NCBI RefSeq assembly: GCF_018977255.1
Contig: NW_024704762.1
Span: 8,742,001-8,806,000 of the forward strand
Direction of reading: 5' to 3'
Source: Callorhinchus milii
Taxonomy: Eukaryota
Length of the DNA: 64,000 nucleotides
The position numbers and the translations under genes were made by a program. Of the stretch, positions 6,201 through 51,132 are shown in pieces. Within the stretch, counting starts at the first letter, position 1. Every line of letters starts with the position of its first letter. The notes under the pieces were generated by a model that had not been told where the DNA came from, searched no databases, and worked only from the letters and a program-made list of their open reading frames with translations.

Positions 6201-8007
6201 TCCCCTGAACATGGCGGCCCGCTGGCGGAGCGAGACCGCGACGGGACGGACGGAAGTGGTGATGGACTACGAGTACAACGGGGACGCCATGCCGGAGAGA
6301 CCTCCCCTGAGGAACCTCCAGGTCTTGCTCCCTGTGGAAGGAGCGGTCAGCGAGGTCCAGTCACACCCTCCCGGCAGCTGGTGAGGATTTGAAGCTCCCC
6401 ATCCATTCATGTTCTTTTAATAAAATGGCTCCCCAGGAGACCGAGCAGGGCCATGCGGCAGCAGGATGCAGGGACGAGAAATTCGGAAGCTCGATGCCCG
6501 CTCTCAGCCGAGTTTAGCTGATCTCAGCCGCGTTGCTGGGCAGGACCAATGGGGCACACCTGCACATGATTGGTTGGGAGGGTGGCATTGCCCTCATACC
6601 TAAGGGTGGGCTAGGAAGAGGTGAGGCCAACCAGGATTTCATTCCTAATCTGACATCTGCTGAGAAACACAGTGGTGTGGATTTCGGGCGAGAAATCCAA
6701 TCAACTTGTAATTGGAGGCAAAGTCGTGGGAAGTTGCCCCGTCCCTCCCCGAGCCAATCACAGCCTCTGAGAGCATTGCCTCCCAACCAATCACATTTAA
6801 GGGTGAGGGCAATGCCTCCCCCCACCCAATCACGTGTAGGTGTGCCTGAGCGCTGCACCTCATTGGTTGAGGCAGTCTTGTGTGGTCAGGTCCTCTGACA
6901 TTATCAGTGTCTCCTCTTCGTGGAGAAATGGCTCTTCCAACAGCTCTGACACCTCCTGTCTTCTCTCCCTGAAGGAACCCCGAACAGAAGAGGCTGTTGT
7001 GGAAGCTTCCAGATATCTCCGGCCAGTCCGCTCACCTGGGTAAATGCAACCCCTTGTTATTTTTTTTGTGACGCTCCAACCCTTAAGCATCGGTTTGGCG
7101 GGTAGTCTCATGTGGCTCACTCACACCCACCCACCTTCTACACACTCTCCTCCCCCCCCCCCCCCCACCCCCCACCCACCTTCTCTCTCGCAGGGAAAGG
7201 ATCACTCCGTGCACACTGGCAGGTCACCGAAGGCCCCAGCAAACCCTCCCCGCTGGCCCTGCAGTTCACAAGCGAGGGAAGCACCCTGTCAGGGGTGGAC
7301 ATCTGCCTGGTGGGGGCAGGATACAGACTATCACTGGTGAAGAAGAAATTAGTCACAGGTGAGATGTTGCTCTTCGCTTGTACCACTGGTTTGCACAGCA
7401 CGTTGCTGTGAGCAATTGGCTGCCGCGTTTTGTCCACAGAATACACAGTCACTCCACTTGACAGTATATCCTGTGAAGCGCTTTGAGACATCTCAACGAC
7501 GTGATAAGACGCTGTATCAAATGGAAGGATTACTAATAATGTCTGACTCGCTCAGCAGTGCTAATTTGCACGCATACAGTGCTTTTCACGCATGGGAACA
7601 TCTTGAAACTCTTTGCAAAGACGAGTGTGAGCTTGAACCGGAGGGGACTGGCTTCGACGCGGCTGAAGGTCACAACCGAAGGAGGTTTTTAGTCGTCTTT
7701 TTTAAAAACAGAGCGAGGAGCAAGGTGGAGGGAGGTTGGGGGAGAGTTCCAGAGGGAAGGCCATCACAAGGCATTTGAAAATAGGAACAAAGACATGATA
7801 AATTGATCTGCTTAGGGATAGAGAGTCAGCGGAGCTCGGTGAAGATAGGGGTGACTGGCTCATGAAACTCATGAGAAAACAAACTGAGGCCAATTCGGGG
7901 GGAATTCTCCCCCCAATTCCTGAGACGAGTCAACTGATGCAAACGTGTATTTTTTTTTTACTCTTTGTGTTTTTTTTTCAAAAGGCAAATACTTTGCAGG
8001 ATGCTGA
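226..8007 (+). CDS. FCHO1: F-BAR domain only protein 1 (FCHO1), 3' part: disordered linker plus mu-homology domain; the 5' exons lie outside the window
   Basis: Phase-consistent exons: 226-250, 701-758, 1371-1549, 1898-1922, 2413-2475, 2788-2928, 3368-3787, 3884-4014, 4144-~4261 (donor uncertain, 4255 or 4261), 4733-4844, 4928-5083, 5462-5594, 6175-6380, 6975-7039, 7194-7358, 7985-8007 (GKYFAGC*). Muniscin motifs: [102 protein letters not shown]1 is preferred over FCHO2/SGIP1 from the motif variants and 19p13-type neighbours. Confidence 0.9.
759..1370 (+). other. U12-type (minor spliceosome) AT-AC intron in FCHO1
   Basis: 5' site ATATCCTTC at 759, branch site TCCTTGAC at 1353-1360, terminal AC at 1369-1370. 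The join keeps frame ([16 protein letters not shown]). No in-frame GT donor follows the conserved peptide. Confidence 0.9.
5740..6146 (+). mobile_element. Deu-domain SINE (AmnSINE1/SacSINE1-like) with L2-type 3' tail
   Basis: Core gccgtccttcaggtgagatgttaaaccgag...aaagatccca...ctattcgaaaagag...gtgtcctggccaaca resembles the DeuSINE central domain as recalled. Ends in the gcaaggattattatt tail. Related copies at about 14235-14490 (+), 18590-18840 (+), 30960-31220 (-), 43240-43500 (-) and 59830-60140 (+). Confidence 0.7.
6545..6868. repeat. Imperfect long inverted repeat (MITE-like or fold-back), CCAAT-rich, in an FCHO1 intron
   Basis: 6554-6596 gcacacctgcacatgattggttgggagggtggcattgccctca is a near match to the reverse complement of 6804-6845 tgagggcaatgcctccccccacccaatcacgtgtaggtgtgc. 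Confidence 0.7.
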
Positions 8008-11646: not shown

Positions 11647-11927
11647 TCCACATGAACCTGATGCGGAATATGACACATGACAGGTAAATGGGACTGAAAG
11701 GATTACTGGCGCGGACCCAATGGGCCGATTGGTCTTCTGCGCTGCCACTTTGCGCGGTTGTGTAGGTGTTAGACGCAAAGACATTGACTAAATGCACATC
11801 CAAAGAGTTGGGCTGACGGTGGAACGGGATCGTCAGGTGGGCTCTCCTTCGGCTGAAACCAAGGTACCGTCAACTGCTCGAGATCCCTTGGACCTGTTGG
11901 AGAAGTGTCCAAACGGGCCTTGTACTT

Positions 11928-11935
11928 TGACGTCA
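11928..11935. promoter_or_regulatory. Palindromic CRE (TGACGTCA) upstream of REX1BD
   Basis: Exact TGACGTCA about 160 nt upstream of the putative first ATG, in CpG-containing DNA. Confidence 0.45.
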
Positions 11936-12089
11936 CAAACCTCACAAGCGTCCAGCACACACCAAAAAAAAAGGGCTGACCTATGGGGCCGGGAGTTGGG
12001 TTTGTAACCAGGAGAAAGGTTTCGCCTCCGTGCAGTGGACGTACGGAGCCTCCGGGCGGTGCTGTTGGAGGAGGAGGAGGAGGGTGGCG

Positions 12090-15000
12090 ATGGGGCTGCT
12101 CGGTGCTGCATTGAGGAGCGCAGTGTGGGAGCTGAGCCTGGGGCGCAGAGCAGGGCCTGGCATGGTGAGGGCAACGTGAGGGCAACGTGAGGGCATAGTG
12201 AGGCCACGGTGAGGGCACTGCGAGGGCAACGTGAGGGTATGGTGAGGGCAACGTGAGGGCATAGTGAGGGCATAGTGAGGGCAACGTGAGGGCATAGTGA
12301 GGGCATAGTGAGGCCACGGTGAGGGCAACGTGAGGGCATAGTGAGGCTATGGTGAGGGCAACGTGAGGGTATGGTGAGGCCAAGGTGAGGGCAACGTGAG
12401 GGCATAGTGAGGCCACGGTGAGGGCAACGTGAGGGTATGGTGAGGGCAACGTGAGGGCATAGTGAGGCCACGGTGAGGGCACTGCGAGGGCAACGTGAGG
12501 GTATGGTGAGGGCAACGTGAGGGCATAGTGAGGGCATAGTGAGGGCAACGTGAGGGCATAGTGAGGCTATGGTGAGGGCAACGTGAGGGTATGGTGAGGC
12601 CAAGGTGAGGGCAACGTGAGGGCATAGTGAGGCCACGGTGAGGGCATAGTGAGGGCACAGTGAGGGCAACGTGAGGGCACAGTGAGGGTATGGTGAGGGC
12701 ACAGTGAGGGCCTGGTGAGGGCACAGTGAGGGCCTGGTGAGGGCAGGGGGTGAGGGCCTGGTGAGGGCAGGGTGAGAGAGCATGGTGAGAGGATGGTGAG
12801 GGCACGGTGATGCCCGCACGTTAAAGGGTTTAGAGCGCTCGAGGAAAATAAGTCGGAAAGTCCTGAGAGGAGAGGCGGCGTCAGTCACCTGGTGTGGCGA
12901 GAAGGTGCCCGTTTCCTTTGGCGTCCCGGCGGTGGCGAGCCTGACCGTACCGCGGTGTGCGGGACGTGGCCGTGCGCCGGTTGAGCTGCCGGGTTCGCCC
13001 GCGCACTGCAGTGAGTCCGGCAAAGTGCTCTCGAGACATCTCGAGGGCTTTGAGAGGGCGCTGCCCTCAAACACAAAGACGATTCGTGTTAATATCTAAT
13101 TATCAATTATTAATATACTGTTGGGTACCGTGTTTACTATCCCCCCCCCCCCCTCCCATTACAGGCTTACGTGGAGTCCTGTAGCTCAGTGGTTAGAGCA
13201 CTCGCTTTGCAAGTGAGAGACCTGAGTTCAATTCCAGGCAGAGGGCGAAACCTTGGGCAAGTTTCCTTACTCCACACAGAGCCTAATAATAATCCCTCCA
13301 AAACCAAAAACAATAATAAATTGGTCATTTTCAATCCATGACTGTTTGTGGGACATTGCTGTGCGCAATTGGCTGCCGCGTTTGCCCACAAATATACAGT
13401 CAATTCACTTTACAGTGTGTTCTGTGAAGCGCTTTGGGACGTCCTCCCGACGTGAAAAGCGCTATATAAAATGCAAGGATTATTATTATTATTATTATAC
13501 GTTAGCAGGTAGTATCTCTGACCTCGTCGCGCGCACAGACACAGAGCGTGCGGCTCGCTCACTCACTGGGGTCGCTGTTTATTGCTGTTTATTACAGAGC
13601 GGTCTGAAGGCGCTGGTGCGGAGATTCTACGCGTTGCAGGAAGAGAGAGTGGAGGCTTACAGGCTGTTTGACGAGTGAGTGACGGAAAGCGGCCGCCTGC
13701 GCGACACTCGTCAGTGTGGTGGTCAGACCACTCGCCTCGCGGGCGGGAGGACGCGAGTTCCATTCCGGGTCAGGGCGAGACTTTGTGCAAGTTTCCTCAC
13801 TCCACAGCCGAACCCAAACTATACACAACAACTTTCCAGAGAAGCCCTGGGGCTCGGTGGAAGGGAGAGATCATCTGCTAAAATGTTATCAAACCTCACG
13901 CAGTGACAATAGTTTAATTGTTGTTCTCTTTCTCTTCTCTATCTCTCTCTCTCTCTCTCTCTCTGTGGGCAGGGGCCACCGGGCCTATCTACAGTCTTCT
14001 CCCGACTATGACTTTGTCCGTTACCGGCAGCTGGTGCACGAGATCACGCAAGCGTTTAACGGGATCTCGAAGGAGGTGATCGAGCTGAAGAGCCGGCTTC
14101 ACGAGGAGTGGGACCGCCCCGACCTCTCGGAGCACATGGAGCGGATCCAGGAGCGGGAACGGGAGAAGTTGGAGCTGGTGAGGGGCATCACGTCACACAA
14201 AACCAAAAACAAAAACAGAGGGCAATTTCAGATCAGATGTTAAACCAACTGAGGTCCCGTCTGCTGGTTCGGGTGAATGTTAAAGAGCCCGCTACGCTAT
14301 TCGGAAATAGAAGGGGGTTTCTCTCTATCCCAATGTCCAGATAAAATCGGCCACTCACTTCATGGCTGTGTGTGGGACATCGCTGTGCGCAAATTGACTG
14401 CCGCCTTTTCCAACAAAATACACAGTCGCTGCAATCTGCAGTAAATCCCGTGAAAAGCTTCTAGACTCCTCCTGACATGATAGGCGCCACATGTTTTAGT
14501 TGCTTGGACTCCAGCAGTTGCTTCAATGCACTCTCGCCTTGGCTCTTATTAACCTGCGCGTAATACTTTCCGCAATTAGGTAAGCGGGATCCATCCCTCC
14601 AGAGAGAGAGAGAGAGAGAGAGCGCATTCCATTCCACCAATCTATCTCTGGAATTTCCATGTGTAGGTGGGATGTTTGGTTTGGATACTCTTACGCATTG
14701 TGGTGGGTTTCTGCATGTGTCAGACACCTGGCCAACCCCCAAAAAAGGGGCCGCATCAAATGCAAGGATTATTATAATTATACAGTGGAAAAAAAACACC
14801 AGCGTTGTCTGGTTCTGCTCTATAACACACTGCGATTCTTCGATTGATTAACAGAGATGTATGTTTCTTTGGTTAACCGAGACGTATGTTTTTCCGCAGA
14901 CTGCCAGGCTGCAGCTCGCAAAACAGAGAGCGTTGGACCATCCGGAGAATGAGAGTTACCAGGAGGAAACCCAAGAACTGAAGCAGAGGTTAGTGGCTGG

Positions 15001-16650: not shown

Positions 16651-19600
16651 TCACACAGACGCTGCAGAAACCCTCACGCCTCTAATAAAGGGAGAGCTCG
16701 TCTCTAATCTAACGTGCAGACGGTCCCAGGGGTTTTGGAGTTGACTGGGCAGCCTTCGCCGGGGGCTGTTTCCAACGTTCTGAGTTAACGTTATGCTTTG
16801 TAGCCACCAAGAACTTTCTCCTACGTTCACGAGGCCCATCTGTTGGGAGGAGTGTCTCTCCTTGGAGTTATCTGCTGGGAGAGTCTGAAAAAGAAAAGCA
16901 ATTTGTGAGTGACTTTTATTTTGGGTTGAGATAGACTGATAGACAGAGAGAGTGAGAGTGAAATGGATTTACAGACCAGACACTTGGAGAGAGATCAGCA
17001 GACAGATAGGCCAGTGAGAGATGAAGAGAGGCAGAGATTGATGGGCAAACAGCGAGTGATAGATACCGAAATATACAGTGAGGAACAGATAGACAAATGG
17101 ACACAACAGGAAACAGAGAGAAAGTGGTAGACAACAATAAAATGACATTTGTATAGCGGCTTTCAGGTCGGGAGGACGTCCGAAGGCGCTGGATAGACAG
17201 AGTTATGGACCCGAGCTGAGGGTCGGGATTGGGGAGGGTGGAGGGCAGGGGGGGAAGCCGGGAGATCGAAAGCACGGTCAAAGAGGACTGTCTTGAGGTG
17301 GGTCTTGAAGATGGCAAGGGATGGGGTGAGACGGAGGGACTGAGGGATGAAATGGGAAGTGGTATGACTGAGGGTGGGAGCAGAGTGGCGGAAGGCCAGC
17401 CCGCCGATAGTGGGGCGAGCAAGGTGGGGGACATGAAGCAGGCCGCAGCCCGCTGAGCAGAGGAAGCGAACAGGGTGGCAGGGGGTTAGGAGATCGCAGA
17501 GGTGGGGAGAGCAAGGCCTTTGAAGTTGAGGACCAGGTTCTTGGACTGTATCGTCTGTGGGATGGGAAGCCAGTGGAGTTGGGCGAGGATGGGGTGATAG
17601 GGTCATGGAACCTGGTGCGGGAGAGGACATGAGCTGCAGAGTTCTGGATGATCTGCAGCCTGTGGAGGGAGGAATTGGGGAGGCCGATAAGCAGGGAGTT
17701 TGCATAGTTGAGCCTCGATGTAATGAAGGAGTGTATGAGGGTTTTGGTGGCCTGTGGTGTGAGACAGTGGCGGAGCCGGGCGATGTTGCGGAGGTGGGAG
17801 AAGGCAGAGCGGGCCATGGCACAGATGTGGGGTAGAAAGGATAGTTGAGGGTCAAACAAGACCCTAAGGTTCCGAACTGGTTTAGAAAGGTGGAGTGTGC
17901 AACCATGGATGGTGATGCTATCAGCGCCTGATCCAGGACTTGATGTCTGACAGACATTCTGTCAGCACAGCAGTGCTCCTGGAGTCGAGACAGAATGAAA
18001 GACAAATAAATAATGAGAGAGAAACGGAGACAAACCACTTAAGACAGGTGAACAGACTGAGAAAGACGAGGCGAGACAGTGAGAGAGAGACAAACAGAGA
18101 CAACCTGAGGGATAAAGAAATGGGCAGAAAATACAAGACTGACATAGCCCTAATCAGCCAGGTTAATTTGATAGACACCGTTAGTTACTATCAAACTCTT
18201 AATAGATGTAGAATTGATTTGGGATATTTTAAAAGGGAGATAGAAAGATACTTGGAAAGTATGGGTGCTAAGAGATATGGGAGTGAAAGTTTTCCCCTGA
18301 TCTAATCAACTGGCGGAGCAGGCTTGATGGGCTGAATGGCCTCCTCCTGTTCCTATTTGGTTTCACGGAAGACTTGCCTTCCTGCGATCCAATAAAAACA
18401 GCAACTTCCTGGTTCTGGGGGAAACAGAAACAAAAATCAAAGAGGCAACATCTCAAAATGTGTTCCTCGTCTCAGCCATACACCCCCCTCTCCCTCCAGG
18501 GCACTGAGATAAATACAGCTGGGAATGGGAATGAGGGAAATGGGATTTCTCTGGGAATGAGTATCAGTTTCTTTGTCCTGCCTGTCTGTTCAGGTGGACA
18601 TTTCAAAGATCCCATGGCACTATTTAAAAAGAGAAAGGAGTTTCTCCCCAATTAAAAAAAAATGGGTTCATTCATTTCATGACTGTTTGTGGGGACGCTG
18701 CTGTGCGCAAATTGGTTGCTGCGTTTCGCCCGCAAAATACACAGTCACTCCACTTTACACTGTGTCCTGTGGAGCGCTTTGAGACGTCTCGATGACCTGA
18801 TAAGGCGCTGTATCAAATGAAAGCATTATTATGATGATTAATATATTACATGGAATGTCTCTGGGAATGGGGCACTTACCTGGTTGCGAGTCTTGTGTGA
18901 TTTCTGCAGCCAAACCCGCCACTGGTCGTACAGCTTGATGTTGAGGGCGGAGCAGCCGTAGGCGTGTTTCTTGACCCAGCTGAAGAACTGCTTGAGCTCT
19001 CGCCGCAGGTTCGAGCCCTGCTCCCGGCTCTTCTGATAACAGGCTCCGCTGGCACGGTCTGCGGCAAGACGGCAAAGCAAATCAGTCGCTTGAGGCAATC
19101 GCCTGGACGCTCCCACACTCACACGCAGGTGGAGACAATCCGAGGCGTGAGATGCTCCTTTGCTGCCGTGACTCGAGGGAGGGGGAGCGAGGTAGGTGTA
19201 GGCTTACCAGCTGAGGGGGAGGAGACTCACTGTTCTGTGGGGGCGCGGAGCTCACTGTTCTGGGGGTGCGGAGTTCACTTCGGGGGGTGGCGGAGCTCAC
19301 TGTTCTGGGGGGGGAGGGGCGAAGCTCACTGTTCTGGGGGTGGGGGCGAAGCTCACTGTTCTGGGGGTGGGGGGGCGTGGGGGCGGAGCTCACTGTTCTG
19401 GGGGTGGGGGGCATGGGGGCGGAGCTCACTGTTCTGGGGGAGGAGCGGAGCTCACTGTTCTGGGGGGGGTAGGGAAACAGAGACTCATTCCGGAGGTGGA
19501 GACTCACCGTTGCGGGGGGTGGAGGCAGCGGTGGGGCTGCTCCAGTCACTCCAGATTCCGGCTTTCTTGGAGCCGTAAATCCCCACGGGATTACACCGGA

Positions 19601-22600
19601 CCTGCACAAAGTAGACGGTTCCCGGCCTCAGCCCGGCCAGGCGACAGGACGTCTGGTTCCCAATGTCGTCCACCACCTGAAACAGGGAGAGAGTCAATGT
19701 CTGCGCCAGGCAACCAATGGAACTTGGTTTGGAGCTGAGCCAGAAGAGCAGGTGGAGTCCAGAATAATGTGGTCAGTCCTTTCTTATATCCTGAACTCCC
19801 CCTCTCCCACCTCACAATTGCTGCCCACCCCTGCCTTCTTGCAATGCTGGACGTACCTTCCACTCAACGCTGTCCTCGACCCGGTAGCGGATCTGGTATT
19901 TGGCCTGAAACAGAAAATCCTTCAGGGCGGGAGGGGAGCTCCAGCGGGCACCCAGCTGGTCCTCCAGGTCACCCACACGATTCACCCGCACGTCGGACGG
20001 AGGATCTGTAGTAACTGTCCAAGGTAATGGAGAAGCGGTTACATTGGGTGTGACATGTTAAGCTTAGAGTTGTAACCCTGTTGTGGTCCTCTTCCACTGT
20101 GTCTTTGGTCATCTGCCCAGCCCCCTGCCCTCCGCCCCTCTTAACTCCAGCTCGTGCGCAAACCCTCGACTGTACAGCGCCTTGGGATGTCCTCCCGACC
20201 TGGAAGGCAGCTGTACATAAGTGCAATTTGTTGTTGTTGTTAACTTACCCACATCGAGGATGTCCAGGGAGATGATTTCAGAAGCCGCAGAGCCCAGCTT
20301 ATTCGACGCCTCAACCCAGATTTCATAGGGAGTGAAGAGAGCGAGATCCCTGGGAATATAACAGGAATAGACCCCAGCCACACCCGGCTCCGAGCACTCC
20401 TTCTCTCTGCCGTACCACCTGAGGATAAGATTAGGATCACTGAGGCTGACACAATCTACAAGATGATGGTCAGTCACACAACCTCACGCTCACATAACTT
20501 GTGTAGTCCCATAGCCTAGTGGTTAGAGCCCTCGCCTGGCAAGCGAGAGGATCCGTGTTCGATTCCCAGGCAGCGCGAAACCCGAGGCAAGTTTCCTTAC
20601 TCCACATGCCTATGTTTACCAGCAGTAAGTAGGAACCTGGTTGTTAGTCGACTGATGGATCAATTTCTGGCGGTAATAATCCCTTCAAATAAAAAATGTG
20701 GCCACTCAATCCACAACTGTTTGTGGGACACTGCCTATCACAATGTTTGCCCATAAAATACATAGTCAATCCACTTTACATAAACTCTGTGAAGCCCTTT
20801 GAGGTATATCATAAGGCGCTATATCAAATGCAAGGATTATTATTATGATTATAACTTTCCCCTTTTTGACCTGTGTGGCCACATTTCAGTTCTGCAGCTC
20901 AGTTATACAGACTCCGCTGTGTGTGTACCCTGACTCATTTTACCTTAGTTTATATTTCAGGGTGTAGCGGGTTCTCAGGAATGCCTCTCCTTCTCCACCG
21001 GGCAGCCACTTACACGTCAGGTCCTTGGTGTTTTTGGACCAACAGGTTATGTTGGTTGGTTTCTCAGGAGGCGCTGACATAGAGTGAAAGAAAGAAATAA
21101 AGGCACTTTTCATTTCTGAGGAGGGATCATCTGAGAAGCTCATATTTAAAGCCCCTCGAAGAAACGCGATGGAATTACACGACCCTCCCCTGCTCCCCTC
21201 CCACTAGCGCAGCATGCAGAGGGATCCAAAACAAAGGGCTCGTAATCCTAAAACTTGAGCTGAACAGGTTGGAAGTTGAGATCAGAAAAGAAATTTAATT
21301 ACACCGAATACTGTGAGAAAAGGGAACGCACTGCCTCATTAAGGTCAGAGACACAGAATGGATTGGGATGTTTAAGAGCAGCCCCAAGCGCTGGACAGTC
21401 AAGGGTTTGCACCCGAGCTGGGGGGGGTGGGGATCAGGAGGGGTGGAGGGCAGAGAGGGTGGGGCTAGGAGAGTGACCGAAGGCTCGGTTGAAGAGGAAG
21501 GTCTTGAGACGAGTCTTGAAGGAGGCAAGGCGGGGCGGTGGGGGGAAGAGGTGGATAGATACTTGCGAAGTGAAAGGAATAAGTGGGTGTGGAGGAATGG
21601 GATGTTAAACAAAAAAACTATCATTATCTAATAAATTAGCTGAACAGGGTTGATGGGCTGAATGGCTTCCTCCTTTTCCTAAATGGTTATATGAAGGAGT
21701 GGGATATCAGTCAAAGTTCTTGTCCCTGATCTCCCGCTAATGGTCCCTGTTCGAACCAGTGAGTGTAGCCATCGGGCGAGGTCAGGATCATAAGAGCTCC
21801 CCTTTGAGATGCCTGCCACCCCTTGTGAAGCTGCCCAAACACACACACACACACAGCCTAGACTCAATTAGACCTTAGAGGTACGAGACTTTACCCCAAT
21901 CAAAACAGCTGCCTTTAGGAAAGGAGGGGAGACAAATGCTCATTGTGTCATCACATCTAACCCTCCCCGGGAGGGATTTGAAAACAAAATACCGAGCCTC
22001 AGTGAGATCCCATCTCCTTTGATCTGACGAGGGATCAAATTTCATTCCTGCCTTTACAGACACATAACAACCGTCATTAATCTTAGTTACACACCAGAGG
22101 CAAATATGTGGCATGCGATGGGAGAATTATTACATATCGCATATTTCTTCCCCCGCACAGAGGTATGCAGGTGTGCAACCATTGCACAATTACACACGCA
22201 ACAGTAAGCATGCATGCACGCACTCCCTCAATCCCTCCGCCTTGCCCCCTTCCCCATCTTCTGGTTGTGCCTGAAGAACTTTTTCTTTGACCGTGCTCAC
22301 AGTCATCTCTCCCCCCCTTACCCCCCTCACGCTCAAGTGCTCTGGGACGCTATCCTGTGTGAGGGGTGTTATGTAAATGCAAGTTGTTGTTCTGGTACCA
22401 TCCCCTTCACCCCCCACTCTCCCCCCTCTCCCTGCATAATAGCCCCATTGTGGACACTCACAGCCCACGTAGAGACACGACCCTGCCAGGATCCTGCCAT
22501 CGGCCCTGTGGCACACCAGGTTGTCGCCGGATTGCTGCTGAGACCCGTTGAGGTTGCGCAGTGTGACCCGGAGTGCCGTCTCATTGACGACTCTGCACAG

Positions 22601-24664
22601 CTCGGCTGGGATCTGCCTGCCGTTTAAGGTCCAGAAGAGGTCCCGAGACTTGATCTTTGATTCCGACGTCACAGCACAGGTCGCGCTCAGCGAGGAGCCT
22701 ATGGTCAGGATGGGGTCCTGTGGCATCACTGAGCCCATCGCTATAACACAAGACAATCACTTGAACTCTCGTTAGTTTGAGAGTAACCCTGGCCTAGATA
22801 TTCAACTCACTGTCCCAACCCTCCTTACCTCATCTCCTCAATTTCCTCCAGCCCTATGCTCCCGTCCATGCCTTCTTACTCCGGTCTCCTGCTTCTAATA
22901 ATGATAATCCTCGCATTTGATACAGCGTCTTATCATGTCTTCAAGACGTCTCAAAGCGCTTCACAGAATACACTGTAAAGTGTAGTATATTTTGTGGGCA
23001 AAAATAATATCAAATGCGAGGATCATTATTATTATTGTAAAGTAACTGAATGGCACCAGCCCACTAATACCACCACTAGATGGCACTTTCGAGTGGCACA
23101 GTGTCTTCCTCTGATGGGTTCTCCTCTGAGGAAGTCCCCAAGATCCCTTAGCCCCACTCTGCACCCCACATTAAGGTGGTTGAGTAAATCTTGGCCGCAG
23201 TGGCCTCTGGTTGAGTAGGGCTCACAGCTGGCTGCAGAAGTATTCCACTGCAACATGAATATTGGCCTTGAAATGACAGGTATCACTGGACCAGTTAGTC
23301 GGATCTCTGTAAAGTGAACTGACTGTATATTTTGCGGGTGAAACGCAGCAGCCAATTGCACGCAGCAGTGTCCCACAAACAGTCGTGGATTGAATGACTA
23401 TTATTATTATTATTATTATTACCATTTGGCTGCAGAGAAGAAAACAGCTCCTGAGCGATTCAGGAGAGGAGAGGGTGGTTGGGGAAAAGGGAAGAGGGGT
23501 GGCGGTGGTTGGGAATAGTGGAATCGGTTTGAAGACGTGGCGGGGGGCGTGAGAGAAAGGGGCGGTTGTGGGGGCGAGAAGGTGCGGCGGTTGGGACAGG
23601 TAACCGGTTCTGGAAGGTGCTGATGGCAATCGCCAGCCAAGCAGAGATTCTAGCAATCTGTCACATTCCGGCCTCCAGTAAGAGCAGATCCCGGCTTTGA
23701 AAGGTAACATTCAACTTGGATGAGAGAGCAAAGCGCCTGTGATTGATCTATGTCCCAACAAGACTCTGGCAACTCCTTCAGGCGAATGATAATCCCTCTT
23801 TTATTTCGCTTCCTTTCAGGAGAATTCTTCTCTCAAAAAATATGTTGCCCATTTTTCCGTCTCCTGGTTTTCTGTTCTCTCCCTCTCTCTCGCTCTCTCT
23901 TTCTTTCTTTTTTTTTAAAAACTTTTTCTGTTCTCTTTCTCAAAATAATTGCCTCCCAACGCTTGATTTCTATTTTATTTCCCAGCGATTTACATTTAAA
24001 GTTTTTTTTTTTTTTTACCATCACGTTTCCACGAATCCAGGTTAAATCAGAGCCACAGTCTCATGGTAGAGGGGAAAGTTTTTTTTTTGGTGAAAAAAAA
24101 AGCTCAACTTGTTATTAGAACCCAAAATTGTTCAAAATTTGAAATATTTTTATACATATATATTATATATTACAAATACTGTACATAGCTCCTTGCCCAT
24201 TGCAGTGCCTGATATACTTCGTTTTTATACACTGATAGAGTCTGGTATCATATATTTCTATATGAACAAATTCTGAACAAATATGAACAGATTTCTGTGA
24301 AAGTTGAGGTGTTTTTTTAAAGGCAAAAGACATAACTATAATGCATAACAAATTCAGAAGGATTTTAGGATCGTATATTAAACTGAGTTATTTTAGAACA
24401 AATATATATACTTATATATGTGTGGATGTATAAATATATATATATATATAAATGAATAGAAATGAAATGGAGGAAAGAATTCCTCAAAATAAATAAAGAG
24501 CAACGTGTTAGTTACACTCACCCCCTTGACTATAGGTTAAATCGTCTGTTAGAAAAATTCTTTATTCTATTCGGTTCCCAAATGCAATTGCAAGTACAGT
24601 ACTTACGAGTGATACCCAACACTGCTTTCAGCAAACAAAGGGCGAGGAGAGGAGAAACGATCAT
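16651..24664 (-). CDS. CRLF1: Cytokine receptor-like factor 1 (soluble type I cytokine receptor: signal peptide, Ig-like domain, two FN3 domains, WSDWS)
   Basis: Minus-strand exons: 24664-24607 ([19 protein letters not shown]), 22740-22462, 21073-20944, 20418-20249, 20014-19857, 19676-19508, 19058-18880, 16884-16651 (last exon less certain). Motifs: [115 protein letters not shown]. Confidence 0.93.
17130..17900 (-). mobile_element. L2-clade LINE 3' fragment (ORF2 C-terminus plus 3' UTR)
   Basis: Translates [11 protein letters not shown]...[16 protein letters not shown]...[21 protein letters not shown]...[12 protein letters not shown]...PITP, typical of L2 ORF2, with frameshifts. Ends in the tail shared with the SINEs. 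Confidence 0.85.
19226..19490. repeat. G-rich minisatellite (about 9 x gagctcactgttctggggg...) in the CRLF1 intron after the WSDWS exon
   Basis: Tandem variable-length units with a constant ctcactgttct core. Confidence 0.9.
23073..23086 (+). promoter_or_regulatory. CTCF-like motif in CRLF1 intron 1
   Basis: CCACTAGATGGCAC fits the CTCF core CCASYAGRKGGCRS. Confidence 0.5.
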
Positions 24665-29046: not shown

Positions 29047-36765
<7,719 letters not shown>

Positions 36766-39700
36766 AACGTTGTGTCTCCCCAAAACAAGAGAGACAGTTT
36801 TTCCCTCTTTGCTCCAGCACGTTTGCAAAATTTGAGAATAAAAATCAACCTAATAATCTTCCCCCGAAATGAAATATTCCAGAGAGGGGAGGAGGGTGGT
36901 GGAGGGAGGAAGGTGTGATGGTGTCTGCATTTATCGACCCCCCCCACCCACCTCCCCCACCCCCAATCCCACCCTCGGAATAGAGTTCTTAATGAGTTTG
37001 AATTCAGTTCTCTTAAGATTTATTTAGGATCCAATGAAAATGCCATTAAAATCTAACAAGATTCTCAAATTCCAAATGAGTAATTTAGAATCCTAGAAAT
37101 GTTTTGGAATGGGTTCCTATTTTCTGATTTGTTTCTAATATATATATATGTGTGTGTGTGTGTATATATAGATCGATATATAACATGGTTGTAAATGATT
37201 TGGCCCCAATCTTTTGTCCAACAGGATTCCCTCACTGAGATGCTTTTTTCTGTGATCATGTGGTGGTGAGGGAGGGGGTCGGACAAAGATCTCTCTGGTT
37301 AATTGCAACCTCCAGAAATGGGAATGAAAGCCACTAGAGTGGGATCTAATGGGAAAGGGAATAGGAAAATCAATTCCGTAGCATTATAGTATAGTCCCAT
37401 ATTAGTTCATCGCTTTATTTATTCTAACTGTGTTATCGAACAGTGCGCGAGTGGGGAGTGGGGGTGGTGGGGGGGGGGAAGGGGTGGTGGGGGGAAGGGG
37501 TGTTGGGGTTAGGGGTGGGAGGGGGAAGCTTTGTAGTCAGTTCCTGCATGTTTCATTCACTTCGCTCTTAACGTGTCAATTACAACTGAACCAAGGATGA
37601 GATGTGTGTGTGTATGTCGTGGGAGCCGTGGGGAGGGGGGAGTTTCATGAGTCTTAAGCCCTCTGGGACATACGCTGGCTGAGGGACGCTATATAAATGC
37701 AAATTGTTGTTGTCCTTACATAGCTGCACAGATCAGCCAAGGTCACACCTTGAATAATAAATAAGAAGAATCCTTACATTTTGGTATAGCACCTCATGTG
37801 TTGGGAGGACGTCCCAAAGTGTTTTGCAGGGTTTACGGTAAAGTGTGTTGGACTGGGTGACAGGTTTTTTTTGTGTGAATCTTAGCCATGTTGCCATGGA
37901 GCAAGGAATTTCAATGGGCGGATTGGAAGATTTCTGGAAATCTTTGATTTGCGAGTAAATCAGATGTTCATTTGACCTTTGGGCTCCATCTGGAGTGCAG
38001 ATGGATTGGGTGAGGGGATGAGGGGATGGGTGGGTGTATACGTGAATGGACGGGGTCGGAAACTGAATGTAAGTGTTGCCAGACCCTGGAATATCATGTT
38101 GAACCTTCACATCTGTAATAAATTATAATGGGAGTGATAAGATCTTTATATATATATGTTTATGTGTGTGTGTGTGTGTGTGTGGCAGGTTCATGGGTGG
38201 GAAGGGTTAGGGACATTAGGTAAGATGTTGAGGTAGATAAGTCATATCTTAAAGTTTGGGGCTGAGAAGGGGAATATGGGAGAGAGCGATGGAGCCAAAA
38301 GGTAAGTTTATTGCTTTTGCTAAGGAGAAAATCAAGAAACCTACAACTTTTGGTGGCTACGGTGACTCAATGTTTATCAGCCTCTCTATTCACTTCCTAT
38401 CCACCACACAAGAACTTCCTTTACCCTAAGCGAACAGCTTTTAGTTGCTTTTAGTTTCCTTGTTTTTTTGGTCTTTAAATGTTGTTGCATTTCCTGTTCA
38501 GGATTTTCGAAATGTAAGCTGATAAAATAAAATAAATCTGATGGAATGACTGTGTTTGGCTAATGTTAGCTGCAAGGAGAAACTGGCCATAATCCTCTAG
38601 CTTAGTGCTGGTCAACATGTGGCCCGTGGGCCGGAAGCAGCCCATGGGGGCCGTCAAGAAGCAGCCCCCAAACCCCTCTACCCCACCCCCGAACATTCAC
38701 ATGACTTTAGGTAAGTCCGTGTTCAATCAGTAGGGTGCTTCAACCGTGCCCTCAGCTCCCCTCTCGACTCTCTACCCCCTCCTCGCTCCCTCCCTTCCCT
38801 CCCCTCGCCCTGACTATTTCCCCCCTGCTCGGGTCCCGACCCAACTGTTCAGCGCCTTGGGACGTCCTCCCGACGTGAAAGGCGCTCTATAAATAAAATC
38901 TTCTTGTTGTTGCTTTCAGCTTTTTTCTTGATTGGGTATTTCTTGATTTGTGGCGTAAAAAGATTATGCTTTTCCTTCTCTGTGTTTGGGGGTGTGTGTG
39001 TGTGGGGGGAGGGGGTGGTGGAGGGGAATGCGAAGGAGGGGGTTGGAGGGCATTCTAAGCCAGGCAAAGCACCAATTGTTGCCCTTTGGGTGTCCAAAAG
39101 TAATAATAATACTTGCATTTGATACAGGGTCTTATAAGACGTCTCAAAGCACTTTACACTATATTGTGTGGGTGAAATGACACTTGGAATGAGCACGAGT
39201 TGGGACATCGTAGGGAAGATTAGGGGAGAAAAGTGGATAAAACTATAAATCGCAATGGGATTTGAGACTGGGCAAATTGGGGGTGGGGAGGTGGGGTAGA
39301 AGAAGGGGGTCGAAATCTTTGCCTTATCGGGCCACCAGCGGGAAGGTCACTGCGGAATTTCCAGAGAGGAATTTGAGGAGGATATCTGCAGGAGCGCACG
39401 GAAAGCAAACTCCATCGTAACAGCAACGATCCTTGCGTTGACACGGCGCCCTATCAGGTCTTCGAGACGTCTCAAAGCGCTTCACGGAAGACGCTGTAAA
39501 GTGAATTGGCTGCGTGTCTTGCGAGCGAAACTAGTAAGAGCTGCGAAGATTGCAACCGGGACTTAAGCATTCGACTTAAGAACGGCGCTGGCAGCGATGG
39601 GGTTAATTCCCCTTTTCCCCCTCTCCTATATTACATTCCCCCCCCCCCCCCCCCGACACCCCCTCGTTACACACGGTCCAGTGTGACTCGGTGTGACTCG

Positions 39701-40119
39701 GTGTTGGGGCTGCCTCGCCTGTTAGACAGGTTCCTCCTCAAAAGGCTCACAGAGTCAGAGCTGTCACTCACTCTGGAGGCAGGAAAGTGCAGAGTCACGG
39801 TGATGAGTGGCAAACTGTCCCTCTGGCACACACACAACACACACACAACACACACAGGGTTGGGGGGGGAGAGGCTGTAGGAATTTGGCCCCATTCTCAG
39901 CAACTGCTGATTGGTTTGGGGTCAGAACCCCTTCCTGAGCTGCATCAGCACAGCACAGGGTCACAGCCACAGCACAACACACAGGCAGGAAGGCACTGCA
40001 CACACTGTGCATAGCACACAGGCAGAAAATACACAGGCAAACACACACACACACACAGGCAGCACAGTGCACAACACAGCACACAGCACAGCACACAGGG
40101 CAACCAGTGTACAGCCAAA

Positions 40120-40722
40120 CACACAGCACAGAGCCACCCCCAGCACAGAGCACAGAGCCACCCCCAGCACAGAGCACACAGCCACCCCCAGCACAGAGCC
40201 ACCCCCAGCACACAGCCACCCCCAGCACAGAGCACAGAGCCACCCCAGCACAGAGCCACCCCCAGCACAGAGCACAGAGCCACCCCAGCACAGAGCACAG
40301 AGCCACCCCCAGCACAGAGCACAGAGCCACCCCAGCACACAGCCACCCCAGCACAGAGCACAGAGCCACCCCAGCACACAGCCACCCCCAGCACAGAGCA
40401 CAGAGCCACCCCAGCACAGAGCCACCCCCAGCACAGAGCCACCCCAGCACACAGCCACCCCCAGCACAGAGCACAGAGCCACCCCAGCACAGAGCCACCC
40501 CCAGCACAGAGCCACCCCCAGCACAGAGCACAGAGCCACCCCCAGCACAGAGCCACCCCAGCACAGAGCCACCCCCAGCACAGAGCACAGAGCCACCCCC
40601 AGCACAGAGCCACCCCAGCACAGAGCCACCCCAGCACAGAGCACAGAGCCACCCCAGCACAGAGCCACCCCAGCACAGAGCCACCCCCAGCACAGAGCAC
40701 AGAGCCACCCCCCAGCACAGAG
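40120..40722. repeat. Minisatellite of CACAGAG / CACAGAGCCACCCC(C)AG units
   Basis: Tandem array; all the long overlapping ORFs at 39764-40861 derive from it. Confidence 0.95.
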
Positions 40723-41084
40723 CTTGACAGACAGTACAGCCCATCACACACCACCACAGTCAGGCAGACCCTACACACTCACACTGCTGTCCTGGACACA
40801 TCCTATTCCTGCCCAAAGCCATCACAGGACCTGCTGCCCCGACTGGGGACACACTCAGTAAGCCAACAACTTGCATGCTTCGACTTGGGGGGGTTTTGTG
40901 GGGGTTATTTTGTGTGACTGCTGTTCCACTTCACCTCTCCCAGAGCCTCACTCACTTTGGCACATGAGCTGTTGTGGATGTGGTGTGTTATTGGGATCAT
41001 GTGGGGGGTGGGAGGGGGTTGTTGTTGCTGTTGTTGTTGCAGTCTGTGTGGTGCTCTGATAGCCATTCCCTTTACTGCTTGTAA

Positions 41085-46730: not shown

Positions 46731-49700
46731 ATGCTGTGTTCCAAGAGGGGACGACCCAATGCCTCGTGTAACCCTCCCACCATCGACGTGCCAGCGCTGA
46801 GCGGATGCAGACACCTGGATTGCACTGTCCAGGGTCACCCTTCCCAGGCGCTGGAGGTGAAGTGATCTCTGTCGATTTGTTGCTTGTTTCGTATTTTTTT
46901 TTCTTAATTGCGTAGGTTAATGTTAACTTCTCTCTGGTTCATCTGAAGCATTGTGTCCCGAGTTGAAATTACTTGTGGAGTCCTGTAGCGTATCGGTTAG
47001 AGTTAGCCCGCTCGCCTCGCAAGCGAGAGGACCCGGGTTCGATTCCCGTTTGCCGAGTTTCCTTACTCCTTTTCCCCTCGTTCCTCAGTAGGGATCCGGC
47101 TGATAGTCGATCGGTGGATCGCTTGTCCCGGGGGTAATAATCCCTTCAAAATAAATAAAAATAATAATAACTTGGTCACTCAATCCACGGCTGTTTGTGG
47201 GACACTGCTGTGTGCAATCGGCTGCCACGTTTCGCCCACAAAATATACACTCAATTCGCTTTAGAGTAAAGCGCTTTGAGACGCCTCGAAGACGTGATGA
47301 GGCGCTGTATCAAATGCAAGGATTATTGTATTTGTTTAGCGCCTTATCAAGTCTTGGAAGGCGCACACACTTTCTCAGCTGTGTGAGCCAAAGGTCTAAA
47401 GGGTAGAATGTTCCTAACAGAGAATGTCACACTGGCGTACTGTACTTCACTGCAATGCTTGCTTGCACTGTGGCTTTGAAATGTCTCGAAGACGTGATAA
47501 TAACATCCAATGCAAGGGTTATTTCCATTGGGTTCCTGACGTGAAAGGCCCTATAGAAATGTAACGTTTGTTGTTTGTTGTTGTAGGTCATGCGGGAACT
47601 GAGGAACAATAAGCAGTTGTGTGACGTGACTCTCCGAGTGACCCACGAGGGCAAGGAGCAAAGCTTCCTGGCTCACAGGGTGGTCCTGGCATCCTGCAGC
47701 CCCGTCTTCAAGGCCATGTTCACTAGTAACCTGCGCGAGCGGCACTTGGCCGAGGTCAAGGTGGAGGGAGTCTGCCCCAGGGTGATGGAGAGGCTGATCG
47801 AGTTTGCCTACACGGCGAGGATCTCTGTGAGCGAGCCCGCCGTGCTCCACGTGTTGCTGGCCAGTATGATGTACCAGGTGGAGGAGGTGGTCAAGGCTTG
47901 CTGCGATTTCCTCGTCAGGAACCTGAACTCCAGCAACGCCATTGGCATCTCCAACTTCGCCGAACAGATCGGCTGCACTGAGCTGCACCAGAGGGGGAAG
48001 GAATACATCAGCATGCACTTCAATGAGGTAAGTCTCCCCCCTCTCCCTCTCCCTCTCCCTCCCTTGTGAAGGCCATATTGTATATAAATACAAGTTGTTG
48101 TTGCCATTGAGAACACTGTCTGGCGAGCTTCACCTCTCCTCTCCGCTCATTCCTTGCAGGTCACCAAAGAGAATGAGTTCTTCAACTTGACCCACTGCCA
48201 ACTCCTGGATCTCGTCAGCCAGGACAGCCTCAATGTCCTGTGCGAGTCCGAAGTATACAAAGCCTGCACGGAGTGGGTGCGCTGGGATCTGGCCAGCCGC
48301 GACCAGTACTTCCACGCTCTCCTAAACGCGGTGCAGATCTACGCTTTGCCCCCGAGGTTCCTCAAGCTCCAGCTGCAGGAGTGTCCGATCGTCAACAAGT
48401 CCAACACCTGCCGTGACTTCCTGGCCAGGATCTTCCAGGAGATGGCGCTGAACAAACCTCTACCCCCCACTAAGCTGCGGGGGAATCAGTTGATCTATGT
48501 GGCAGGGGGGTACCTGCACAACTCTCTGAGGTGGATGGAAGCCTTCAGCCCCCGGACAAGCCAGTGGATCAAACTGGCCGACCTCCCTGAGCCCAGGAGT
48601 GGGTTAGGCTCCTGTGTGGTCTTCGGGCTGTTCTACGCCATGGGCGGCAGGAATAATTCCAAGCATCTCAATGTCGACTCAGACGCCCTGGATTGCTACA
48701 ACCCCATGACCAACCGCTGGACCCAGCGAAGTCCCATGAACGTGCCCAGGAACCGGGTGGGCGTCGGGGTAATCGACAGCATCATCTACGCTGTGGGAGG
48801 GTCTCATGGTTCCTCCCACCACAGGACAGTTGAGAAGTAAGTGACTGCGAAGGAGTCCTGAGTAATATTCCTTGCATTTGATACAGCGCCTTGCGTTTTG
48901 TTCAGACGTCTCAAAGCGCTTCACAGGATACACCGTAAAGTGGAGTGACTGTGTATTTTGCGGGTGAAACGCGGCAGCCAGTTGCACACCGCAGCATCCC
49001 ACATACAGTCGTGGCTTGAGTGACCGCATTTTTCTTTTTGATGGGATTATTAACCCCACAAAGCGATCCAGGGATCGACTAACCCTGACCTTGGAAGTAT
49101 ATTTAATCAGAAACTAAATAAACTGTATACTTTCCAAGTTAAGGGAGCGTCTGCAAACAGCAACCTGGAAAGCATTCACTGGAACCACAACTCCGTTGAG
49201 TTTACGGTCTTGTCCTTCTTTGCTCGTAGATACGACCCCGAGACCAACTGTTGGACGTTCGTGGCACCTATGGCGGTGAGCCGGATTGGCGCTGGAGTGG
49301 CCGTATGGGACGGTCTTCTGTACGTCATCGGGGGATTTGACGGGGAGAACCGCTGGCAGACAGTGGAGTGCTATCACCCTGAGACAGACAAGTGGCACTT
49401 TGTGGCTCCGATGGGCAGTGTTCGCAGTGGGGCAGGTTATACACTTTCCACTTTGTTCTTGTGAGAAATTGGGGGTGAGGGGCAGAGGGTATAAAGGCCT
49501 GGGAGCCTGAACAGAGCCTGGTGTATGTAATAATAAGAATTATATTATAATAACACACTCAAACTTGCTTAAGTCTGATCTGTATAAATCGTAACATCTC
49601 CTAACTTGTACACCTGCCCAAGACCCGTTGAATTTTCTATTATATATAAGTTTCAGGTAACTCATACTTTGGGTAAATCATATTCAACGTTTGGTCCCGA

Positions 49701-51132
49701 CTGATACGACTTATGTGAGGTTTACTGTAATAATAATACTTGCATTTGATACATTGCCCTATCACGTTGTTGAGACATCGCAAAGCCCGCTTATTGTAAA
49801 GTGGAGTGACTGTATGTTTTGTGGGGGAAACGCGGCAGCCAATTTAGGATGGGAGACAGGGACGGGGTGTGTAAACAAAGGGAGCTGAGTTAGGGTTAAA
49901 GAGGGTGTTGCTGGGGTCAGTTTGAGATGTCATGGGGGGCTTTATTGGGGGAACAAGCCGAGAAATGAACACATTACGTTACTATTTCCCACGGACCCTC
50001 TCCTCGGCTTTCCTCCCCTCAGGTGTTGCTTCTCTGGACAATTACATCTATGTGGTTGGCGGCTTTGACGGCACGAACCAGCTGCAGACTGTGGAGCGTT
50101 ACAGTATCGAGAGGGATCAGTGGGAGAGTGTCGCGCCTTTGAAACACAGCCGGAGCGCACTGGGAGTAACGATGTACCACGGAAAGATCTACGCACTGGG
50201 TAAGGCCTCTGTTCGTTCACCGCGGGTAACGATAATGATTCTTACATTCGATACAGTGCCTTTCGCGTCTGGAGGACATCCTCACAGGATTCTGGGGCTG
50301 ACGGATATTCAGCGTCTCTGCTTATACTGTAGTAACCATCAGGGTACATTTACTTAACCTTTCATTCACTAAATCCATCTCATTGAGTAGCAGAACAAGG
50401 AGGCGCAATCTTAAAATTGGACCGAGGCCATTTGGGAGTGAAATCAGGAAGCTTTTTTTCACACAAAAGGGAGTGGAAATCTGGAACTCCCCCCCTCTCT
50501 CTCTCACTCCCTCCCTCCCTCCCTCCTCCCCCAAAAGGCTGAGGATGCTGGAAACATTCAAATTTGCAAGACTGAGGTGGACAGATTTTTGTTAGGAATA
50601 CGGGGCAAAGGGTGGATTATTGGGGTTCAGGTACAGATCAGCAACGATCTAATAGAATGGCAAAATAGACTTGAGGGGCTGAATGGCCTCTTCCTGTTCC
50701 TGTGTTCATTCCATCCCATTGGATACAATTCCAATGGATCCAACCCCTTCCCACTCCATCTCACTCCCCTCCATTGCTGATGAATGGTCACTCGGGGCGA
50801 GGACGTCTCGCGGGGCGGTGGGGGGTGGGGGGGTGGTTCTGCTCAGGGGAGAAAGTAGGAAGGTTTTTGGCTGAAATGGAGGTTTGTGAACCATATTGTT
50901 GGAATTGAATTCCCTTTATTCCCCCCCAAACCCCACAGGAGGCTTCAGCCAAGAGTTCCTCAAGAGTGTGGAGTGCTACGATCCCGAGAGTGACCAATGG
51001 ACTGAGGTAGAGAACATGCTGTCGGCACGGAGTGGTATGGGAGTGGCTGTCACCATGGAACCCTGCCCCAGGAACCTCAGCAAGTCAGAGACTGATCTGC
51101 CACTGAACGCCACACTGCCCACGTTGTGCTGA
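46731..51132 (+). CDS. keap1a: Kelch-like ECH-associated protein 1, Keap1a-type paralog (BTB-BACK/IVR-6 Kelch)
   Basis: Exons: 46731-46856, 47587-48027, 48160-48836, 49230-49435, 50023-50199, 50939-51132; 606 aa. KEAP1-specific peptides: [41 protein letters not shown]...[30 protein letters not shown]. The [23 protein letters not shown] lacks the C273 equivalent and keeps C288, the Keap1a pattern. Confidence 0.93.
46976..47330 (+). mobile_element. Older tRNA-derived SINE (longer body) in keap1a intron 1
   Basis: tRNA-like head with B box gggttcgattccc, a body segment absent from the young subfamily, and an L2-type tail. Related copies at about 20507-20850, 44720-45045, 55600-55945 and 57610-57955 (-). 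Confidence 0.75.
50370..50705 (+). mobile_element. CR1-type LINE 3' fragment in keap1a intron 5
   Basis: Translates [10 protein letters not shown]...[15 protein letters not shown]..., followed by a CR1-like 3' end (gaggggctgaatggcctcttcctgttcct). Similar tails at about 18170-18360, 31930-32060 (-) and 59350-59480. Confidence 0.7.

What the first reader, a model, noticed from the sequence alone, without database searches (positions are those of the whole stretch)
47773..48384. Keap1a with a rewired cysteine code: no Cys151, no Cys273, Cys at the His129 position
Seen: [11 protein letters not shown] aligns with human ISMGEKC151VLHV, so C151 is Ala (GCC 47839-47841). The C273 equivalent is Ile (48337-48339), and the C257 and C434 equivalents are also absent. 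C226, C288 (48382-48384), C297 and C613 are kept. EGVCPRV places a Cys (47773-47775) exactly 22 codons before position 151, at His129. Established: C151 senses sulforaphane/tBHQ/CDDO-type inducers, C273/C288 sense another class, C226/C613 take part in H2O2 sensing, and H129 lines the C151 pocket. Inference: either an electrophile-resistant Nrf2 repressor or a sensor thiol relocated within the pocket.
Basis: partly seen in the sequence, partly recalled or inferred. Interest (0 to 1): 0.7.

Follow-up and report, generated by a model that had tools for sequence, protein, structure and literature searches.

The report
Elephant shark Keap1a lost Cys151 sensor
This is the elephant shark's second copy of the oxidative-stress regulator Keap1 (Keap1a); it lacks the Cys151 chemical sensor, as Keap1a of three other cartilaginous fishes does, and likely acts as a brake that ignores sulforaphane-type inducers while the intact Keap1b copy does the sensing.

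Summary
The residues are as described, but most are ordinary for Keap1a. The gene is the intact, spliced Callorhinchus milii keap1a (606 aa, identical to XP_007897069.2). Among 105 de-duplicated Keap1a entries Cys273 is absent in 104 of 104 with a letter there; loss of Cys273 and Cys257 is published. Cys at 129 occurs in 78 of 105, in 76 beside an intact Cys151, zebrafish included, so it is no replacement for Cys151. Ala151 is real (no other letter in contigs of 4 runs, 3 studies) and comes with G148S and K150P. It is not unique: 4 of 22 cartilaginous-fish Keap1a lack Cys151, three without Cys129, and 0 of 22 keep Lys150, whereas 15 of 15 of their Keap1b, this genome's included, keep H129, R135, G148, K150, C151 and H154. 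Best reading (0.7): an Nrf2 repressor blind to Cys151-class electrophiles, the published behaviour of zebrafish Keap1a, with sensing left to Keap1b. Relocation of the sensor to 129 is unlikely (0.08). The repeated Cys151 loss was not found in print. Function untested.

The parts
46731..46856 (+). keap1a coding exon 1 (start codon, N-terminal region)
   Evidence: Exon model translates to a 606-aa protein identical to P0002; covered by the spliced contig
47587..48027 (+). coding exon 2: BTB domain and start of BACK
47773..47775 (+). TGC, Cys105 = human His129 position; residue just before a predicted helix
   Evidence: Cys in 78 of 105 Keap1a entries
47830..47841 (+). remodelled sensor loop S-E-P-A = human G148-E149-K150-C151
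47839..47841 (+). GCC, Ala127 = human Cys151 position
   Evidence: no other letter in contigs of 4 runs
48160..48836 (+). coding exon 3: BACK/IVR and Kelch 1-3
48193..48198 (+). His225-Cys226 equivalents, kept
48289..48291 (+). CTG, Leu at the Cys257 position (general Keap1a trait)
48337..48339 (+). ATC, Ile at the Cys273 position (defining Keap1a trait; Ile in 86 of 104)
48382..48384 (+). TGT, Cys288 equivalent, kept
48409..48411 (+). TGC, Cys297 equivalent, kept
48811..48813 (+). TCC, Ser at the Cys434 position (Ser in 98 of 105 Keap1a)
49230..49435 (+). coding exon 4 (Kelch repeats)
50023..50199 (+). coding exon 5 (Kelch repeats)
50939..51132 (+). coding exon 6 to the stop codon; Cys613 equivalent at 51064-51066, terminal Cys at 51127-51129

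Best explanation
This is the intact keap1a gene of the elephant shark, whose protein has no Cys151 and likely works as an Nrf2 repressor that ignores Cys151-class electrophiles, leaving that sensing to the Keap1b copy. Shown: intact spliced gene, BTB-BACK-6 Kelch layout, kept Nrf2-contact residues, S148/P150/A151, and a Keap1b paralog with the full Cys151 site in the same genome. Inferred: it dimerises, binds Cul3 and Nrf2 and drives Nrf2 degradation; sulforaphane, tBHQ or CDDO cannot switch it off because the target thiol is gone; Cys288 and Cys226/Cys613 may still let it answer prostaglandin-type electrophiles and H2O2. Inferred history: the Cys151 site of cartilaginous-fish Keap1a had lost its activating neighbours (Lys150, mostly His154), so the cysteine itself became dispensable and was lost in several lineages. 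Cys129 is a common Keap1a residue at a helix start and is probably unrelated to the loss.
For: Protein identical to the annotated Keap1A and inside the Keap1a clade (support 1.0, 0.96). 15 of 17 Nrf2-pocket positions examined equal human, the other two are Tyr to Phe (list of positions recalled, seven of them also seen in the table of PMC10146909). Only 4 departures at 158 columns that are at least 95% conserved elsewhere, so the protein is not decaying overall; 4 of 5 coding differences in run contigs are silent. Cartilaginous fishes: Keap1a lacks Cys151 in 4 of 22 species (Callorhinchus Ala, Pristiophorus Gly, Hemiscyllium Ser, Narcine Phe), Lys150 in 22 of 22, His154 in 20 of 22; Keap1b keeps H129, R135, G148, K150, C151, H154 in 15 of 15. 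This genome's Keap1b exon reads ...IHPKVMQR...VGEKCVLH. Zebrafish Keap1a (Cys129, Thr150, Cys151, Ile273) represses Nrf2 but answers sulforaphane weakly (PMC7452054) and is nonpermissive and dominant-negative for electrophile signalling through C273I (PMC9754640). Mouse C151S KEAP1 keeps CUL3 binding under CDDO compounds (PMC12550724).
Against: No function was measured for this or any cartilaginous-fish Keap1. Cys151 is kept in 93 of 94 bony-vertebrate Keap1a and 18 of 22 cartilaginous ones, so it is not free to vary everywhere. This protein keeps three basic pocket residues (R131, R135, H154), more than the shark mean of 2.4 and the batoid mean of 1.7, which fits a pocket still in use. Two of its four departures at conserved columns fall in the pocket (chance about 0.04 given C151, post hoc), which fits directed remodelling as well as decay. 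The excess of Cys151 loss over cartilaginous Keap1b is not significant by itself (4/22 vs 0/15, p=0.13; vs bony Keap1a 1/94, p=0.0045; species are not independent). keap1b-knockout zebrafish still showed some sulforaphane induction (prdx1 4.8-fold vs 17.8-fold). The three other losses each rest on one database gene model, not checked against reads.
Confidence: 0.7

Rival explanations
1. Cys129 is a working sensor thiol in the same pocket. In most Keap1a it sits beside Cys151; in the elephant shark it is the only thiol there and would carry electrophile or oxidant sensing.
For: His129 lines the Cys151 groove in the human structure (PMC4045772). Both models put the Cys just before a helix, in a C-P-R motif with R131, R135 and H154 kept; a helix start can lower a thiol pKa (recalled). 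Cys129 is held in 17 of 18 frogs and 58 of 66 teleosts. One unnamed teleost-like entry (P0178) also has Cys129 without Cys151.
Against: 76 of 78 Cys129 carriers keep Cys151, and 27 of 105 Keap1a have Ser, His, Asn, Glu, Asp or other residues at 129, largely residues typical of helix caps (recalled). Three of four cartilaginous Cys151 losses have no Cys129. Zebrafish Keap1a carries Cys129 and still answers sulforaphane weakly. No geometry could be measured: the BTB model superposes poorly on solved KEAP1 BTB (rmsd about 12 A, TM about 0.48).
Confidence: 0.08
2. Loss of Cys151 was selected, not tolerated: Keap1a of cartilaginous fishes is tuned as an inducer-proof damper that heterodimerises with Keap1b and caps the Nrf2 response.
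For: Losses in four separate groups with four different residues; clustered G148S, K150P, C151A in an otherwise conserved protein; a dominant-negative role is published for zebrafish Keap1a (PMC9754640).
Against: 18 of 22 cartilaginous Keap1a keep Cys151; four different replacement residues are what relaxed constraint also gives; no codon-level test was possible because only proteins of the relatives were held.
Confidence: 0.17
3. The gene is degenerating, or Ala151 is an assembly error or rare allele.
For: Keap1a changes faster than Keap1b in all four species pairs measured (0.42-0.66 vs 0.34-0.48 substitutions per site) and amniotes lost it (PMC7452054).
Against: Open frame, six spliced exons, no other letter in exon 2 in 4 runs from 3 studies; terminal branch of this protein (0.16) is shorter than that of its Keap1b (0.22); Nrf2-contact residues kept.
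Confidence: 0.04

Closest known systems
Zebrafish Keap1a (NP_878284.2, P0219)
   Same: Same subfamily; Cys129, no Lys150, no Cys257, Ile273, Cys288, Ser434, Cys226 and Cys613. Published: represses Nrf2, weak sulforaphane response, dominant-negative for electrophile signalling.
   Different: Zebrafish keeps Gly148 and Cys151 (Thr at 150); the elephant shark protein has Ser148, Pro150, Ala151.
Keap1a of other cartilaginous fishes
   Same: No Lys150 in 22 of 22; Cys151 also missing in Pristiophorus japonicus, Hemiscyllium ocellatum and Narcine bancroftii.
   Different: The other 21 have His, Glu or Asp at 129; Callorhinchus is the only one of the 22 with Cys there, and one of two with His154.
Mammalian KEAP1 / Keap1b
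   Same: BTB-BACK-Kelch layout, Nrf2 pocket, Cys226, 288, 297, 613.
   Different: His129 and Cys151 in 75 of 75 Keap1b-clade entries; Cys273 nearly always kept. The elephant shark's own Keap1b is of this type.
Engineered KEAP1 C151S and C273I mutants; invertebrate Keap1 without Cys151
   Same: C151S is blind to CDDO compounds; C273I mutes electrophile signalling; sea urchin, octopus and fly Keap1 lack Cys151 (PMC6155405).
   Different: Here both changes occur together in a natural vertebrate protein, with a second thiol at 129.

Membership tests
Keap1 (KLHL19) | BTB, BACK and six Kelch repeats | tested here: met
   Pfam BTB 45-154, BACK 160-260, six Kelch_1 stretches; best PDB sequence hits are KEAP1
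Keap1 (KLHL19) | Nrf2-binding pocket residues in the Kelch domain | tested here: met
   15 of 17 positions identical to human, Y525F and Y572F otherwise
Keap1 (KLHL19) | Binds Cul3 and Nrf2 and represses Nrf2 | not testable with these tools
   Needs cell assays; inferred from zebrafish Keap1a
Keap1a subfamily | Groups with fish and amphibian Keap1a, apart from Keap1b | tested here: met
   Clade support 1.0 and 0.96; a separate Keap1b lies on another contig of this genome
Keap1a subfamily | Cys273 absent, Cys288 present; Cys257 absent | tested here: met
   Ile, Cys, Leu; feature as published in PMC6155405 and PMC10146909
Keap1a subfamily | C3IR segment giving strong Cul3 binding (PMC10198636) | not tested
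   The seven residues are given in figures that are not held; binding not testable here
Cys151 electrophile sensor site | Cys at 151 | tested here: not met
   Ala
Cys151 electrophile sensor site | Basic cluster H129, K131, R135, K150, H154 | tested here: not met
   3 of 5 basic (C, R, R, P, H); Keap1b clade has 5 of 5 in 69 of 75
Relocated sensor at 129 | Cys129 co-occurs with loss of Cys151 | tested here: not met
   76 of 78 Cys129 carriers keep Cys151; 3 of 4 cartilaginous losses lack Cys129
Relocated sensor at 129 | Thiol placed and activated within the pocket | tested here: inconclusive
   Cys precedes a predicted helix but the model superposes poorly and gives no distances

The most novel reading that the evidence does not exclude
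Cys129 is an overlooked second reactive thiol in the Keap1 BTB pocket, specific to the Keap1a subfamily (three quarters of its members), and the elephant shark protein is a natural Cys129-only version in which it alone senses a class of oxidants or electrophiles after Cys151 was discarded.
Probability: 0.1. Interest if true: 0.6.

Novelty: new variant of a known kind. Interest (0 to 1): 0.25.

Why it matters
Cys151 is described as conserved across vertebrate Keap1 (table in PMC10146909; PMC6155405). The repeated loss in cartilaginous-fish Keap1a is an exception that sharpens a published idea: the two Keap1 copies split into a sensor (Keap1b) and an inducer-insensitive brake (Keap1a). It gives natural alleles for testing that split and a clean background for asking what Cys129 does. 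It is a refinement of a known system, not a new mechanism, and the animal keeps a normal sensor in Keap1b.

Tried and rejected
Sequence error or rare allele at 47839: rejected; only contigs were available, which drop rare variants, and I laid 4 of the 13 runs that hold the stretch. No RNA holder was on record as RNA. Wrong register: rejected, no gap between 129 and 151. Cys129 as a lineage-specific gain: rejected. Other chimaeras: three protein searches returned no relative between 72% and 100% identity apart from this gene, so whether Ala151 is shared by all holocephalans is open. Structure: the full-length model was weak in BTB/BACK (mean pLDDT 70, pTM 0.54); the exon-2 model had pLDDT 86 but pTM 0.53 and rmsd about 12 A to solved BTB; neither gives distances, so I used only their secondary structure. 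The residue at 129 in the first Keap1a is left open: the tips show Cys in this species and most bony vertebrates, His in sharks, Keap1b and lamprey. A first pocket-clustering figure (p=0.0014) counted C151 itself and was replaced by the conditional 0.04. The first exon guess was off by a base at several junctions and was corrected. McMahon 2010 and Kobayashi 2009 are not held and are cited second-hand only. Earlier findings of this scan: none returned.

Full report
What it is. The stretch lies in exons 2 and 3 of a six-exon gene at 46731-51132 (+). With GT-AG junctions it gives an open frame of 606 residues, letter for letter the database protein P0002, which NCBI names kelch-like ECH-associated protein 1A of Callorhinchus milii, XP_007897069.2. 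Pfam finds BTB, BACK and six Kelch repeats. In trees of the relatives it falls in the Keap1a clade (support 1.0 among 120 proteins; 0.96 among 192). A search of the own genome finds a second gene on contig C5 at 57% identity, whose exon is part of the annotated Keap1B, P0105.

Alignments to solved human KEAP1 chains run without a gap between positions 129 and 151 and through the IVR. The codons are TGC at 129, GCC at 151, CTG at 257, ATC at 273, TGT at 288, TGC at 297, TCC at 434, and TGC at 226 and 613. Thirteen of 24 listed runs hold the exon. I laid four, from three studies: none lists another letter in exon 2, and one 2600-base contig covers the six exons in order. Five coding differences appear elsewhere, four silent and one Val to Met. 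Of 158 columns at least 95% conserved in the other proteins, this one departs at only four, and two of them are G148S and C151A.

Most of the 'rewiring' is the Keap1a norm. From 116 Keap1a-clade entries I dropped 11 isoforms or duplicates, leaving 105 (97 named, 8 unnamed). Position 273 is Ile 86, Leu 16, Val 2 and never Cys (104 with a letter). Position 434 is Ser in 98 and Cys in 1 of 105. Position 257 is Cys in 1 of 115 before de-duplication. Loss of Cys273 and Cys257 in Keap1a is in print (PMC6155405, passages; PMC10146909, passages and table), and C273I was singled out experimentally (PMC9754640, abstract and passages). Position 129 is Cys in 78 of 105: 17 of 18 frogs, 58 of 66 teleosts, lungfish and bichir. 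Of the 78, 76 also have Cys151. Named zebrafish Keap1a reads DVCPQ at 129 and GETCV at 151. In the Keap1b clade 75 of 75 have His129 and Cys151.

What is unusual is the loss of Cys151, and it is shared. Cys151 is present in 102 of the 105. Adding cluster members gave Keap1a of 22 cartilaginous-fish species: four lack Cys151, namely Callorhinchus (Ala), Pristiophorus (Gly), Hemiscyllium (Ser) and Narcine (Phe), and the last three have His, His and Glu at 129. Each has sampled relatives with Cys151, so I infer separate losses. None of the 22 has Lys150 and 20 have Gln for His154. All 15 cartilaginous Keap1b examined, this genome's among them, keep H129, R135, G148, K150, C151 and H154; K131 is kept in 14. 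The contrast with bony-vertebrate Keap1a (1 of 94) gives p=0.0045 and with cartilaginous Keap1b p=0.13, neither corrected for kinship. The three other losses rest on single gene models that I did not check against reads.

How it most likely works. Shown by sequence: the Nrf2 pocket is kept (15 of 17 positions equal to human, two Tyr to Phe; the list of positions is recalled, seven of them also seen), the Cys151 thiol is gone, and the Cys288 and Cys226/Cys613 sites remain. From papers: Cys151 sits in a groove lined by H129, K131, R135, K150 and H154, with CDDO bonded to the Gly148 amide (PMC4045772, passages); the K131M/R135M/K150M mutant behaves like C151S (PMC12634842, passages, citing work I could not read); C151S keeps CUL3 bound under CDDO compounds (PMC12550724, passages). 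Zebrafish Keap1a, with Thr150, represses Nrf2 but answers sulforaphane weakly: keap1b knockouts gained no survival benefit and induced prdx1 4.8-fold against 17.8-fold (PMC7452054, abstract and passages). It is also reported to bind Cul3 more strongly than Keap1b (PMC10198636, abstract, first part and passages). Inferred: the elephant shark protein is a standing Nrf2 repressor blind to Cys151-class inducers, the end state of a site already weakened across cartilaginous fishes, while Keap1b senses. I put this at 0.7, a selected damper at 0.17, a sensor moved to 129 at 0.08 and degeneration or error at 0.04.

Against this reading. Nothing was measured on this protein. It keeps three basic pocket residues, more than the shark and batoid means, and its changes cluster in the loop (about 0.04 by chance given C151, post hoc), which suits remodelling as well as decay. 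Both models place the 129 cysteine just before a helix in a C-P-R motif, where a thiol can be activated (recalled), and its high frequency in frogs and teleosts suggests it is under some constraint. The models could not settle geometry: the BTB model matches solved KEAP1 BTB at only TM 0.48 and rmsd 12 A. Whether Cys129 was present in the first Keap1a or arose twice is left open.

Novelty. The gene and its subfamily are annotated and studied. I found no paper on Cys151 loss in cartilaginous-fish Keap1a or on a Keap1 Cys129, from search listings only: Keap1a + Keap1b + cysteine + evolution, Keap1 + Callorhinchus milii + Nrf2, Keap1 with H129C, Cys129 or C129 (20 of 37 listed), Keap1/C151 with elephant shark terms (20 of 115 listed), Hemiscyllium terms and Keap1a + Cys151 + lost + shark. 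The library lacks most subscription papers. Alignment figures and supplements of the papers read were not seen, and those showing zebrafish or frog Keap1a may well display Cys129. Verdict: a real, modest variant of a known kind; interest 0.25.

Noticed in passing
P0011 (Pristiophorus japonicus Keap1A), human positions 148-151: The loop reads C-E-Q-G where other sharks read G-E-Q-C: a Cys at 148 and a Gly at 151. This is a better candidate for a sensor thiol moved within the loop than Cys129; single UniRef entry, not checked against reads.
   Followed up: partly
P0239 / P0237 (Hemiscyllium ocellatum Keap1A): Ser at 151 while Chiloscyllium, Rhincodon and Stegostoma keep Cys. The epaulette shark is known for hypoxia tolerance (recalled); one literature search found nothing on its Keap1.
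   Followed up: partly
P0178 (unnamed, teleost-like Keap1a): Cys129 with Ser151, the only other Cys129-without-Cys151 entry; one sequence on one contig, may be an error.
   Followed up: partly
P0105 and other cartilaginous Keap1b: They keep both Cys273 and Cys288 (15 of 15), unlike teleost Keap1b, so the elephant shark has a mammal-like full sensor copy. His replaces Tyr85 in 14 of 15 Keap1b and 20 of 22 Keap1a of this group, near an alignment gap; Tyr85 is proposed to tune Cys151.
   Followed up: partly
window 51127-51129: The protein ends in a Cys (residue 606) on a C-terminal extension longer than in shark Keap1a; it might stand in for human Cys622/Cys624 in H2O2 sensing (speculative).
   Followed up: no
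window 5974-7408 (+), 13683-14240 (+), 19488-22756 (-), 33662-35925 (+): Neighbouring exons match muHD (FCHO-like), REX1-B, a cytokine-receptor Ig domain (CRLF1-like) and BSMAP (TMEM59L-like) (115 of 198 candidate frames scanned). Gene names and their clustering on human 19p13.11 are recalled.
   Followed up: no
window 46983-47465, 48754-49075, 49720-49880, 50525-50846: High-copy interspersed repeats in the keap1a introns, seen as very high contig depth.
   Followed up: no
window 39700-40900: Long low-complexity tandem array open in several frames; also a mucin-like hit at 11836-13095 (-), probably a repeat.
   Followed up: no
window 49402: G/A difference giving Val or Met at residue 473; the two database versions of the protein differ only here.
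   Followed up: yes
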